A DNA stretch of 64,000 bases from the human T2T-CHM13v2.0 reference genome, Homo sapiens. Location of the stretch: the NCBI RefSeq assembly GCF_009914755.1, contig NC_060942.1, one strand, 5' to 3'. Under the pieces are notes generated by a model. The model did not search any database, was not told where the DNA came from, and saw only the letters and a list, made by a program, of their open reading frames with translations. Position 1 is the first letter of the stretch. Every line of letters starts with the position of its first letter. This document shows, piece by piece, positions 40,991 through 62,499 of the stretch. The position numbers were made by a program, and so were the translations under genes.

Positions 40991-41849
40991 ATATCCTATT
41001 CAGGAAATAACTTCAGAAAAATAATCCAGTAGAAGTGACCTTTTTGTTTTCAGATACTCAAGACAAATACACATAATTACTGTGTGGGTCACAGCGTCAT
41101 TTTTTTCTTTGCTTAAATAACTCTACTGACCCAAACAATTCACTAGAGATGTATGAAGTTGGAAAGATTACCATAAACTTTTAAGTCTTAACATATTTTT
41201 TGGTAGTTCGCTAATAAGGATAACAATCCAACACTTCATGTATCCCAGACCTGAAAATTATAATTTAAAAAATACACAAGCGTTAGCTTTTCAGTTTTTT
41301 CCATGTGCATCATGTTTTACTCTACAGAATGTTGACTACACGCTGTTTAAATATAATTAGCCCTACGGTATGGCATCGCGTGGATCCACGGTGACGGCTC
41401 TTTGGTCCTGCATTGTTTGAGATGCTGTAGGTGGTTCAACATTGTGTTAAGTTGCACGTACATTATTAGTTCTGTATCCGAAGACACTGGCTCTGTACCC
41501 TTTCAACAAGGCTCTGGGAGTTCCCCCAGCCAAGCAGAGACAGGGTTAAGGCAGTCCAACAGAGGAGAGTAGTGCGGTGTGTGTGTGAGTGAGTGTGCAC
41601 GCGTGAGCGCACAGGACAGAGGCGTCGAGGTGCGGGGCGGACTCCTACACAAGTTCCAAAGGCCACCGTGTCCGCGGCTTTCGGCCTGAGCGGGACAGCG
41701 GGAAGCGGGTGGAACGGCCTGCACGGAGTGGGCAGCGCCCCAGGAATTTGGGGGCTGAGTTGGAGGGAGAGGGGTCTCGCGAGGGTTTCAGGGCGTGGCT
41801 GGAGTAGGGGGCGCGCGGCGAGTGTGCACGGGTGTGCGCGCGCGAGAGG

Positions 41850-41888
41850 GCGAGTGTGAGCGCGGCGAGTGTGAGCGCGGTGAGTGTG
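41850..41888. repeat. 15-bp tandem repeat GCGAGTGTGAGCGCG x2.6 in core promoter
   Basis: Exact copies at 41850-41864 and 41865-41879, partial copy at 41880-41888, related copy at 41818. Confidence 0.85.
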
Positions 41889-41909
41889 CGGCCGCGTCGC
41901 CATTCCCCG

Positions 41910-41917
41910 TGACGTCA
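41910..41917. promoter_or_regulatory. Full palindromic CRE (TGACGTCA), overlapping an Inr-like TCAG
   Basis: Exact CREB/ATF consensus inside the CpG island. Confidence 0.75.
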
Positions 41918-42156
41918 GAGTGTATTGTTGTGAGCGGGGCCGAGCGGAGCATCCCCGGAGCTGTCACCGCAGCGGCCGCGGCGGTGGCGCAGCGCGAGCC
42001 CCGCACGAGCGAGCCCGGCCGGCGCCGCCCCCGCCCCTGGCCCGGGCCCCGCTGCTGCCGCCGCCCCCGCCCCCGGCCCGCCCGCCGCGCGCCGCCGCCG
42101 CCGCCGTCGCGCGCCCCCACCCACTCCACCCCACCCCCTCGCTCCATCCCTCCCAC

Positions 42157-42200
<44 letters not shown>

Positions 42201-42329
42201 GCCCGCGCGCCTCCCCCCGCGGAGCGAGTGCGGGTCACCGGGTCACTGGGTCATTGTCTCCGCGCCCGAACCCCGAGCACCCCGTGGAATCCCCCACGTC
42301 ATCATCAGAACCATCAATGAGATGCAAAC
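41917..42329 (+). other. ASXL3: ASXL3 exon 1 5' UTR (TSS approximate)
   Basis: C-rich leader upstream of the ATG. The TSS is inferred from the Inr-like TCAG and my recollection of a roughly 0.4-kb annotated leader; it cannot be fixed from sequence alone. Confidence 0.6.
42157..42195 (+). repeat. (CCG)13 pure trinucleotide repeat in 5' UTR, followed by CCA CCG CCC; second (GCC)5 at 42091-42105
   Basis: Directly counted. Confidence 0.98.
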
Positions 42330-42383
42330 ATGAAAGACAAGAGGAAGAAGAAGGACCGCACCTGGGCCGAGGCTGCCCGCCTG
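42330..42383 (+). CDS. ASXL3: ASXL3 (additional sex combs-like 3, Polycomb PR-DUB scaffold) first coding exon, 18 codons, start of the ASXN/HARE-HTH domain
   Basis: ATG in context AAACATGA. Translates MKDKRKKKDRTWAEAARL, the ASXL3 N-terminus (ASXL1 is MKDKQKKKKERTWAEAARL). Ends at phase-0 donor CTG|GTACGT. Confidence 0.95.
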
Positions 42384-45166
42384 GTACGTACCGCCCCCCA
42401 CACGCCGCCCGCGCCTCCCGCCGGCCCCGCCGCTCGCCCCGCGCCGGTCCGCGGCGGCGGAGACGGCCACTTCCAGCCCGAGCCGCCGCCCGCTCGCCGG
42501 GCTCCTGCTCTTTGTTATTCTGCGGGAGTGGGCTCGCCCGGGGGCCCCTGTGTGTGTGCGTGCGCGCGCGGAGGGGCGCAGCGATTATCTCCGGGAGCCC
42601 CGCGTCCGGGACCGCCCGGGACACTTCTCCCCGTACTTCGCTCTCGGGGCTCTGCTGTGCCTTCTCCACGGGTGAATTTCCGAGCGCTCGGCGCAGCTCG
42701 ACTTCCCTCTCTGCCGCTCCGGAGACCTTTGTGTGGCAATTACCACTCCCTCCCGGCCCCTCCACCCCCCGGAATTTCATCAATAACTCTGTGCACAGTC
42801 TGTGTGTATGTTCGGCGTTTGTGAGTTCAAACATTTTACACGTGCATGCATGGTGTGTGTCCGACACGGACTTGTGGGGCGTGTGCATGTGGGCTAGGTG
42901 GTTGCGTGTCTGTGTGCCATGTCGTGTGCATTATGTGTGCACACTGATACGTGCATGTTTTGTGTGGCTCCAGTTCGTTTGTGTTTGTAGGTATTGTGCT
43001 CTGCTCGATGTTTGTGTGTACATTCTGTGCACGTGTGTGCAATTTGTGAGTGTGTTTCGGGTGTGTGTGTGTTTGGTGAAGTTGGGTCAGTGTCATTTGT
43101 AGTGGGAGGTTATTAAGAGTGTACAGCTAGGTGTATTTTACTGCTGGCTTCCTGGGCGGTGTTACTTGGCTGCTTTTCCTTTTCTTTAACCTTTCGGAGC
43201 TTACGTTTTAATCATCGAAAGAATGTCTCTATAGAAATGCCGGTTGGCAGAGGGGCGTCGGCGTCTTTGGTTTGATGCATGTATATGTGTGGGTTTTTCT
43301 TTTCTTTCTTTCTTTTTTCTTCCTATCTTCTTTTAAAGGACAGCTGTAAAAGGATTTTTCAAAAGGATATTTCTGTACAGTGTGTCTCGGGAATGCCAGG
43401 CATTACATTTGAAGCTAAGCCTTTCAGGGTTTTGGCTGCATAAATTAAACATTTATTCGCCAGCTTACTATCTGTTATAAATTGGCCAAAAGAAAGCAGA
43501 CTGCATGCAGCGGGGGTTTTGGGAGGGGGGAGGAGGACGTGTTATTGGGTTGACTTTGTAAAGATTGTTTTACTGTAACTGTAGTCATTTTGAAAAGCAT
43601 TTGAGTAACTACATTATGCTCAAGGAGAACATTTGTCAAAAGTAATTATCTGAGTTTGGTTGAAGGGCCTTGCTCTGGTATGTATCTGGATTCTAGCAAA
43701 GGGTTTTAGATAATTGGCCCTATTGCCCAGCGAAGAAGTGACAAAGTCCTTTTTAATTGCAATCTAGTTATTGGTAGCTGGAGTGCCCAGGTCCCTTTAC
43801 TTAATCTCTTAATTTTGTAGTGTTGTATGTTATTTCTCCACTTATCTGTGATTGCGTTAATCGCTAAATCTCTCACTCTGTGGATGAATGGGCAGGTGAT
43901 AGTGATTCTTTAATGAACTGCATCTGGAAGAGGAAACTTAAGTTGTGGGGAATATGTGAGAAGTAAGCAGTAAGTGTTAAGTAGATGCCAGATTGATGTT
44001 GTCAATGAGTTTTTGCTGGAGCATAGTACATTACTTATTGTTTGCTCGGCCATTAATTCAGAATTGTGTGGGGATGTGCAAGGCTTCTGAAAATGCATTA
44101 TTCAGGTTCCGTGGAGTGGCAATCAAGTACTATTAGAGAGCTTTAGTGTATATTTTAAGCAAGTGAACAATGAGTTGATTTATAAATATTTAAAAATAAT
44201 AAGTCATGAATTAGCCATATCTGCCTGCAGAGAATTATTTAATAAATAACATTACTCTGATGGAATTTAAAGCTAGCCATTTGTATTCAATCAGTATATG
44301 TTACTATTCTTGAAGGTACTGTGTTTTATTTGATCTAATAATGATATATCTGTATTGATATAATTTGAAAGAGATTTCTAAGTCACAGGTTTTTGTTAAA
44401 AGTTGGATTTTCCTCTCGAAAAGTTCGTTGATGGGAAAAGACACACTAGGAGTCATCAACACAAAAGAACGATAGACCAGATGTCTCTATTTTAACCAGA
44501 CATATTGAACTAGTAGTTATGGTAATTTTTCAATTTGGTTTAAGTTATTTTTCCCCTGGTAGTTGTATAAATGTGTATGTATTCAAAATGTGCCAGTTAA
44601 AATCAAATACTGAATAAAATTGCAAGGAATCGTACTGGAAATATAATTTTCAGAAATTTATGATTTGTATAAGTGACTTATCTAATTCTTATTTTGTGAA
44701 GAAAGGAGAAATTGATCCATTTGGTTAACGGTGATAACTGGTCACCATTAACCAAATTAATATTTGGTTAATTTTCATATTTTCTTTATGATTACGTGAA
44801 TACATATGGACTTGAATTCTCTTCTAAACTTGCATGATAAAATATTTTTACTTTTATAATTGATAGTATTTCTTAACTCTCAATTAAAAAAAGTTTTTAA
44901 GCATTTCTGTGATATAGATACTATCATTTCATATTACACAATGCTTCTGATGATTTTGCTGTTGTTGTTAGGGACTTTAGCCTTTTCTTCATCAAATATT
45001 AAATGAGGTGCCTGATTTTAAAAGTAAAGATTCAGGATGGATAGAAAATATATAACTCAATATGTGGTTTTTGCAATAAATGAACTAAAGAGAGAGTACT
45101 CAAATTAACGTTAAGAATGATCTTCCAATTCATGCAGAATATGTTATATATATCTTTCTTGCTGGA

Positions 45167-61650: not shown

Positions 61651-62499
61651 CACTAGCATCTTATATGGATTCCCAAGATTTAAAACTTTAGGGTCTTGAC
61701 TGATTGCTGCTCTTCACGTTATCCTGCAGGGAATGCTGGGTATCCCTGTTGTCTGTTTCCATAAGGACAGGTGTTTAGTATTCATATGTAGGCAAAAATA
61801 TACACTAAGCACCTTAATTTTCATAATATTGTATTAATCCTACATCTGCAAATATTGTTTTCAGAGTTGTTATATATCTATCTATACTAGTAGTAGTAAA
61901 ATATAAACCCCAAATTGTTAGAGTATCTAATCTTGATTTAATCATATTAGATCTTGGGAAGATTGTCTACTTTAATTATTTCATCTAATATTCTCATTTA
62001 TATTTTTGTGTTATGTTTAGATTTTTATGGGAGGTTCTATAACAAAACTTATTATATGTCCCATGTTTGCTTTTACTTAGCCCTCCTTGTAAATATTGTC
62101 CATTGCCCCCCAGTGCCTCTGTATAAAAATGTCTATGTGAGACACTTCTCTTAGTTTAGAAATAAGAAAGCGTTTATCTGCTCTGACAAACTCATGTTTC
62201 TTTCATTCAGCTAATGAGAGTTAACTAATGTCTGCCTCTACATTTTAACTGCCATAAAATTGGGACAATGTTCAAGATCAAAGTCACAGCAACTTTATCA
62301 TCGGGCATGATTTCTCATTTTTGAAGCATTTCACTGGATTAGTCTCTTTTAAACTAGTGCAAGTTTCTTTCAAGGAGATGTGATAAGAAAAGTTACATGA
62401 GATAAGTTATCTGGGATAAGAAATGATGACATATGAACCTCGATGACAAGACACTGTAAGAATCTGCAGGTATGACCAGGAGGTATTGTGGATAACCAT

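What the first reader, a model, noticed from the sequence alone, without database searches (positions are those of the whole stretch)
42314..42335. Three AUGs in three frames and two AUGA stop/start overlaps in 17 nt: a possible ribosome frame router
Seen: ...TCA ATGA G ATG CAAAC ATGA AA... has three ATGs, one in each frame. ATG 42317 has a weak context (T at -3) and opens the out-of-frame overlapping ORF MRCKHERQEEEEGPHLGRGCPP.... ATG 42322 (G at -3) opens a minimal uORF, MQT*. ATG 42330 (A at -3) is ASXL3. The CCG repeat frames map onto them. The poly-Pro frame terminates on top of the productive ATG. The poly-Ala frame (open from CTG 41961, same frame as ASXL3) terminates at TGA 42318-42320 on top of the non-productive ATG. 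The poly-Arg frame runs without a stop into the overlapping ORF. Established: upstream AUGs immediately 5' of a start codon are depleted in human mRNAs and repress translation. Inference: ASXL3 synthesis needs double leaky scanning or termination-reinitiation, so single-base variants here could change dosage. Loss of TGA 42318 would also allow a poly-Ala N-terminal extension. Caveat: any ATG followed by A creates an overlapping TGA, so each overlap alone has about a 1-in-4 chance.
Basis: partly seen in the sequence, partly recalled or inferred. Interest (0 to 1): 0.7.

Follow-up and report, generated by a model that had tools for sequence, protein, structure and literature searches.

The report
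Frozen triple start codon in ASXL3
The human developmental-disorder gene ASXL3 has two extra out-of-frame start codons just before its real one, in a stretch left unchanged in distant vertebrates, and they likely act as a built-in brake on how much ASXL3 protein is made.

Summary
In detail: ATGs at 42317 (c.-13), 42322 (c.-8) and 42330 (ASXL3) lie in three frames and are the only ATGs in the 413-nt leader. After splicing, c.-13 opens a 64-codon overlapping ORF ending in exon 3; c.-8 opens a 3-codon ORF ending on the main start.

The new result is conservation. A pigeon record carries the same 22 out-of-frame residues. Two unnamed records that read opposite strands of a vertebrate whose intron no longer aligns give 70 of 70 bases identical to human from c.-16 to c.54, both upstream ATGs included. 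ASXL1 and ASXL2 lack the cluster.

The 'repeat frame router' fails: leader frames shift between species, and the main AUGA overlap is forced by codon 2.

Best reading (0.55): a conserved brake in which three close AUGs compete, like known inhibitory overlapping uORFs. Main rival: a splicing or chromatin element in which the ATGs are passengers. Translation is untested; the ORF is absent from the one Ribo-seq catalogue I could check with a control, and my searches found no paper on it.

The parts
41917..42329 (+). ASXL3 5' leader, 413 nt, GC-rich, turning A-rich in its last 40 nt; holds only two ATGs
   Evidence: annotation in the finding
42157..42195 (+). 13 CCG units; not part of the conserved element (run shorter or absent and frames shifted in P0040, P0041)
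42314..42383 (+). Frozen block c.-16 to c.54: 70 of 70 bases identical in the two-strand reading of P0043 with P0054; 17-18 of 20 free coding sites forced to the human base in each of 7 single records
42317..42319 (+). uATG1 (c.-13), frame +2, T at -3 (kept in both cross-strand pairs)
42317..42383 (+). Exon-1 part (22 codons plus 1 base) of the 64-codon overlapping ORF; it continues through exon 2 (C18:33799291-33799373) and stops at c.180-182 in exon 3 (C18:33836574-33836682), outside the window
42318..42320 (+). TGA in the ASXL3 frame, overlapping uATG1; closes the upstream frame 0
42322..42333 (+). uATG2 (c.-8) and its 3-codon ORF MQT*, whose TGA (42331-42333) overlaps the main ATG
42330..42383 (+). 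ASXL3 coding part of exon 1, main ATG 42330-42332; splice donor follows at 42384
   Evidence: annotation

Best explanation
Two out-of-frame ATGs sit 13 and 8 bases before the ASXL3 start in a block unchanged in distant vertebrates, and they likely form a translational brake in which scanning ribosomes would be shared among three close start codons, so that only part of them would make full-length ASXL3. Shown: the anatomy, the 64-codon and 3-codon ORFs, the conservation, and the absence from ASXL1 and ASXL2. Inferred: (1) both upstream ATGs are used; (2) the main share lies between about 5% (strict leaky scanning) and about 36% (even competition); (3) ribosomes on the 64-codon ORF stop in exon 3, 64 nt before the next junction, and would expose the mRNA to nonsense-mediated decay, perhaps weakly because the stop is near the start; (4) ribosomes ending the 3-codon ORF, or missing all three ATGs, would next meet the in-frame ATG at c.82 and make ASXL3 lacking residues 1-27; (5) the kept pyrimidine at -3 of uATG1 would make the split depend on start-codon stringency.
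For: Pigeon P0019 begins with the same 22 out-of-frame residues and then joins bird-type exon 2. The +2-frame peptide is identical over exon 1 in 7 of 7 hits (10 candidates; one hit is the window itself). The antisense frame over exon 1 and c.-15 to c.-1 is identical in 7 of 7 hits (21 candidates), 4 with unrelated-looking flanks; it fixes the A of uATG2. P0043 and P0054 agree at 51 of 51 shared codons and give 70 of 70 identity for c.-16 to c.54, against 24 of 70 in the intron, where the best local score equals that of shuffles. FACS-seq model values for the three contexts are 84, 91 and 97, and that paper reports reduced output when an out-of-frame AUG lies 5 nt upstream (PMC4299517). In yeast, out-of-frame uAUGs, including a weak one at -13, lower output by competition and trigger decay (PMC9743702 section 9). 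ASXL3 is intolerant of loss of function (10.1101/2025.09.24.678298).
Against: There is no direct evidence of translation. ASXL3 has no row in the Ribo-seq ORF table of PMC10032668 (the paper analyses the 7,264-ORF catalogue), while the ASXL2 uORF does. Start codons cannot explain frozen synonymous sites as far out as c.30-54, so some other constraint covers the block and could cover the ATGs too. Repression weakens as a uAUG nears the main AUG, so the brake may be mild. The searches return only look-alikes; 3 of 10 and 14 of 21 candidates fell below the cut-off and were not seen. The A of uATG2 is not fixed by the pigeon record or by the P0041 with P0048 pair. The two-strand reading joins two unnamed records that are assumed to be one locus.
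Confidence: 0.55

Rival explanations
1. The whole 70-base block is frozen for a reason other than initiation (an exonic splicing enhancer for a short first coding exon, a protein-binding site on the RNA, or a promoter-proximal chromatin element). The ATGs are passengers, tolerated because close spacing lets the strong main AUG win.
For: All 20 free coding sites are frozen, including c.33 and c.39, which are free in both sense frames. The block ends at the splice donor and is purine-rich. RefSeq lists an enhancer over 42246-43233. Inhibition falls at short distance. Thousands of such synonymous constraint elements are reported (PMC4014394, listing only).
Against: The strictly frozen part starts at c.-16, exactly the -3 base of uATG1, and a 2-nt insertion is tolerated just 5' of it. 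Harmful ATGs could be removed by single changes over this time span. No RNA structure signal (z 0.68) and no Rfam match in the block.
Confidence: 0.25
2. Exon 1 to exon 3 is a dual-coding region, and the 64-residue product of uATG1 is a functional microprotein that freezes the synonymous sites of ASXL3.
For: 22 of 22 residues are identical in pigeon. The frame stays open to c.180, which synonymous re-draws of the ASXL3 codons achieve in 2-33% of cases depending on GC3.
Against: Sites that are silent in both frames are frozen too, as is the antisense frame, so the constraint is on bases. The same frame is also open over exons 1-2 of ASXL1. No usable feature hit in the Atlas for the first 24 residues of P0019, no catalogue row. 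Exon 2-3 conservation in this frame could not be tested.
Confidence: 0.1
3. One reading: ribosomes starting at non-AUG codons upstream of the CCG repeat are sorted by frame and restart at the AUGA overlaps.
For: In human the frames do end as described.
Against: Frames shift between species; the repeat run varies; the mapping is automatic with three ATGs in three frames; the main AUGA is shared by both paralogues.
Confidence: 0.05

Closest known systems
Conserved poor-context inhibitory uORFs and overlapping uORFs that sense start-codon stringency (Hox mRNAs, PMC8892498; BZW1/BZW2, PMC5823381; both seen as search listings only; eIF5 recalled)
   Same: Out-of-frame upstream AUG with a pyrimidine at -3, conserved in vertebrates, in a developmental regulator.
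   Different: Here two upstream AUGs lie within 13 nt of the main start, inside the range of direct competition, and the constraint runs through the coding part of the exon. Repression and response to eIF1/eIF5 are untested.
Closely spaced competing AUGs (Brownian ratchet scanning, PMC9743702, abstract and section 9 read; PEMV2 p26/p27, PMC6294492, and 43S sliding, PMC4770231, listings only; influenza B NB/NA recalled)
   Same: Out-of-frame AUGs less than about 17 nt apart that share ribosomes.
   Different: The natural cases in these listings are viral and give two proteins. This is a cellular gene with three AUGs, and no product of the extra frames is shown.
Synonymous constraint elements in coding exons (PMC4014394, listing only)
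   Same: Synonymous sites frozen far beyond what the protein needs.
   Different: This block extends into the leader and holds a start-codon cluster. I could not check whether it is in the published element lists.
ASXL1/ASXL2 transframe ORFs reached by frameshifting (PMC5644247, passages read)
   Same: Overlapping ORF with synonymous-site constraint in an ASXL gene.
   Different: Those are central ORFs behind shift sites. The paper says ASXL3 lacks them, and the passages I saw do not mention its leader.
Stop-start (AUGA) termination-reinitiation and repeat-containing uORFs (caliciviruses; FMR1, NOTCH2NLC; all recalled)
   Same: AUGA overlaps and a GC-rich triplet repeat in the leader.
   Different: No conserved upstream long ORF or conserved repeat frame; the main AUGA follows from codon 2.

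Membership tests
Inhibitory overlapping uORF in conserved poor context | AUG upstream of and out of frame with the main ORF, stop inside it | tested here: met
   c.-13 to c.182, 64 codons
Inhibitory overlapping uORF in conserved poor context | AUG conserved across vertebrates | tested here: met
   pigeon P0019 and 5 further records besides the window's own; fish and amphibians not tested
Inhibitory overlapping uORF in conserved poor context | Poor context, itself conserved | tested here: inconclusive
   T at -3 kept in both cross-strand pairs, but the FACS-seq model value of 84 is not low
Inhibitory overlapping uORF in conserved poor context | Translated in cells | not testable with these tools
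   no row in the table of PMC10032668, with ASXL2 as positive control; larger catalogues not seen
Inhibitory overlapping uORF in conserved poor context | Represses the main ORF and responds to eIF1/eIF5 | not testable with these tools
   needs reporters
Closely spaced competing AUGs | Out-of-frame AUGs within about 17 nt | tested here: met
   5, 8 and 13 nt apart; range from PMC9743702
Closely spaced competing AUGs | Measurable initiation at more than one AUG | not testable with these tools
   only model arithmetic
Synonymous constraint element | Synonymous rate far below background | tested here: met
   20 of 20 free sites identical in the P0043 with P0054 reading; paralogue controls keep 9 of 14 and 6 of 10 codons; intron at background. 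Few lineages; no formal rate test
Dual-coding alternative ORF | Constraint on the second peptide, with sites silent in both frames left free | tested here: inconclusive
   c.33 and c.39 are frozen in 4 of 4 divergent antisense records; only 2 such sites; exons 2-3 untested
Repeat-containing uORF or frame router | Repeat held in a fixed frame relative to the start codons | tested here: not met
   frame shifts in P0040 and P0041, 2-nt insertion in the divergent pair
Stop-start termination-reinitiation | Translated upstream ORF with a ribosome-tethering motif before the overlap | not tested
   no motif search was made; the only AUG-started ORF ending at the main start has 3 codons

The most novel reading that the evidence does not exclude
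The 17-base cluster is a three-way start selector kept since before mammals and birds split. Start-codon stringency would decide among full-length ASXL3, a form lacking residues 1-27 (restart at c.82 after the 3-codon ORF, losing the basic tail and the start of the HARE-HTH domain), and a 64-residue alternative product coupled to mRNA decay. Single-base leader variants would then be an overlooked cause or modifier of ASXL3 disease, and blocking the upstream AUGs could raise protein from the intact allele.
Probability: 0.15. Interest if true: 0.75.

Novelty: new member of a known kind. Interest (0 to 1): 0.5.

Why it matters
ASXL3 is dosage-sensitive (Bainbridge-Ropers syndrome). If two conserved upstream AUGs take much of the ribosome flow, variants at c.-16 to c.-1 and 'silent' variants in exon 1 become candidates for changing dosage, and the upstream AUGs become a handle for raising output in loss-of-function patients. 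It also offers a natural, deeply conserved cellular test case for models of competition between close AUGs, which rest mostly on yeast libraries and viral RNAs. The general mechanism is known.

Tried and rejected
Repeat-frame routing: rejected. Paralogue conservation: none; in the 700 nt upstream of the start, the nearest ATG is at -290 in ASXL1 and -226 in ASXL2. RNA structure: z 0.68, 152 of 200 shuffles fold as well. Rfam: 1 match at E 0.76, in the intron, far below its cut-off. A cassette exon ending at the annotated donor 62469 that would put uATG1 in frame with ASXL3: 0 of 19 acceptors tried. Atlas: no usable feature hit, structure hits all TM under 0.5. Representative search with the third antisense frame: 3 hits, of which P0047 is an unrelated repeat protein and was dropped. 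Two-strand readings: P0042 with P0054 conflicts in the intron over the full span, and P0043 with P0052 and P0042 with P0053 conflict in the flanks, so only P0043 with P0054 was used for the 70 of 70 count; all 45 pairs agree in the core. The ASXL1 exon 1-2 join holds one extra codon, which leaves the frame unchanged. Literature: ASXL3 with uORF (1 paper), with repeat expansion and CCG (3), with upstream open reading frame (1), with upstream start codon and untranslated (0), and the peptide motif (0); the two hits I opened do not describe this leader. No ASXL3 row in the supplements of PMC9943669 (1 file) or PMC11057154 (3 small files), both without a positive control.

Full report
Observation. 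Window 42314-42333 reads TCAATGAGATGCAAACATGA. Its three ATGs (42317, 42322, 42330) are in frames +2, +1 and 0 and are the only ones in 41700-42500. Exon 2 (83 nt) and exon 3 (109 nt) were located in the same genome. On the spliced mRNA, uATG1 opens 64 codons ending at c.180-182 in exon 3, uATG2 opens MQT*, and the next ATG after the cluster is the in-frame c.82. Shuffles give ATGs in both other frames of the last 13 nt at 0.0003 to 0.0056. That is rare, but with about 20,000 genes (recalled figure) some cases are expected by chance.

Conservation. No vertebrate genomes are held, so I read orthologous DNA through proteins that gene finders predicted in off frames. A search with exon 3 returned 39 proteins. 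One, pigeon P0019, starts with the 22 residues of the human +2 frame and then joins bird-type exon 2, so it is not human contamination. A search with the +2 frame gave 7 hits of 10 candidates, all identical over exon 1; one is the window itself. A search with one antisense frame gave 7 hits of 21 candidates, all identical over exon 1 and c.-15 to c.-1; four have flanks unlike human. A second antisense frame gave 2 true hits of 3.

Given the ASXL3 protein, single records force 17 of 20 (pigeon) or 18 of 20 (six unnamed records) free coding sites to the human base. P0043 (sense) and P0054 (antisense) agree at 51 of 51 shared codons; pairs that are not one locus agree at roughly a third of the codons outside the core. 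Together they fix 70 of 70 bases from c.-16 to c.54, all identical to human, including both upstream ATGs, both TGAs and the -3 T of uATG1. The intron beyond +6 matches at 24 of 70, and its best local score equals that of shuffles. With the per-codon identity of ASXL1 (9 of 14) as the rate, 20 of 20 has a chance of about 1e-4; with generous rates 0.05, or 0.0015 when the 16 leader bases are added. Limits: only pigeon is named; pigeon alone and the P0041 with P0048 pair leave the A of uATG2 open; searches favour look-alikes; fish and amphibians are untested. ASXL1 and ASXL2 have no ATG near their starts.

The router idea. In P0040 and P0041 the open frame that reaches uATG1 matches human frame +2 near the cap, then human frame 0 (the poly-Ala frame), then uATG1. 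The divergent pair has two extra bases just 5' of c.-16. The repeat frames therefore do not keep their targets. The main AUGA comes from codon 2 and is present in both paralogues. The distance from the conserved promoter motif to uATG1 is 261-372 nt in 4 of 4 records and 406 nt in human, so a too-short leader is unlikely; CAGE data could not be checked.

Mechanism. The FACS-seq model table gives 84, 91 and 97 for the three contexts and 83 for the consensus. The model was trained without upstream-AUG cases, and a figure legend there sets the consensus at 100, so these values are rough. With that paper's constant of 0.86, strict leaky scanning gives 72%, 22% and 5%; shares in proportion to the values give 31%, 33% and 36%. 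The paper also reports reduced output when an out-of-frame AUG is 5 nt upstream. In yeast, out-of-frame uAUGs repress less as they near the main AUG, including a weak one at -13 before a strong start, and they lower mRNA through nonsense-mediated decay. I infer a brake of uncertain strength. The stop at c.180-182 lies 64 nt before the exon 3-4 junction, beyond the 50-55 nt rule (recalled), though stops near the start often escape decay (recalled). Restart at c.82 after MQT* is inference from the ATG map alone. I give this reading 0.55.

Rivals. The freeze runs to the splice donor and includes c.33 and c.39, which are silent in both sense frames. Start codons do not explain that, so a splicing, RNA-binding or chromatin constraint with passenger ATGs gets 0.25. 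Against it, the strict block begins at the -3 base of uATG1. No structure or Rfam signal was found. A functional 64-residue product gets 0.10: the open length is only mildly unusual and the constraint is on bases. The router gets 0.05.

Literature. Five searches and three supplement searches found no description of this cluster. Only the PMC10032668 table had a positive control, the ASXL2 uORF. What I saw: passages of PMC12381280, 10.1101/2025.09.24.678298, PMC5644247 and PMC4299517 (plus five table rows); the abstract and section 9 of PMC9743702; supplement searches only for PMC9943669, PMC11057154 and PMC10032668; listings only for PMC8892498, PMC5823381, PMC6294492, PMC4770231 and PMC4014394. 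The supplements of PMC13010147 and PMC13275300, brain Ribo-seq catalogues and uORF databases were not seen and may list this ORF.

Verdict. A real, deeply conserved start-codon cluster that likely works like known inhibitory overlapping uORFs. Membership is not shown, because translation and repression are untested. New member of a known kind; interest 0.5.

Noticed in passing
window 41899-41917: A perfect palindrome TGACGTCA (41910-41917; CRE label recalled), the only one in the window, overlaps the annotated transcription start, just after a GCCAT motif (YY1-like, recalled). The translated flanks of P0042 and P0043 resemble this promoter stretch although the rest of their leader does not align.
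   Followed up: partly
window 62443-62469: The alternative exon ending at the donor 62469 holds an ATG 9 codons before exon 2 and in frame with it, so other annotated transcripts could bypass the three-ATG cluster.
   Followed up: partly
window 42157-42195 (within 42049-42203): Thirteen pure CCG units inside a longer degenerate CCG array in the leader of a dosage-sensitive gene; a candidate for expansion and silencing. The search listed 3 papers; the one opened concerns CHD3.
   Followed up: partly
L011 (ASXL2 leader, -226): The 17-codon uORF found is listed as translated in the Ribo-seq table of PMC10032668.
   Followed up: yes
L012, ASXL3 c.164 and c.169: A second pair of ATGs 5 nt apart (out of frame, then in frame) lies in exon 3; several database models start at the in-frame one or at c.82, probably because exon 1 is missing from them.
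   Followed up: no
window 41800-43102, frame +2: The uATG1 frame has no stop from before the transcription start to 43102 in unspliced DNA, and it is open upstream in P0040-P0043 as well; the search favours such records, so this may mean nothing.
   Followed up: no
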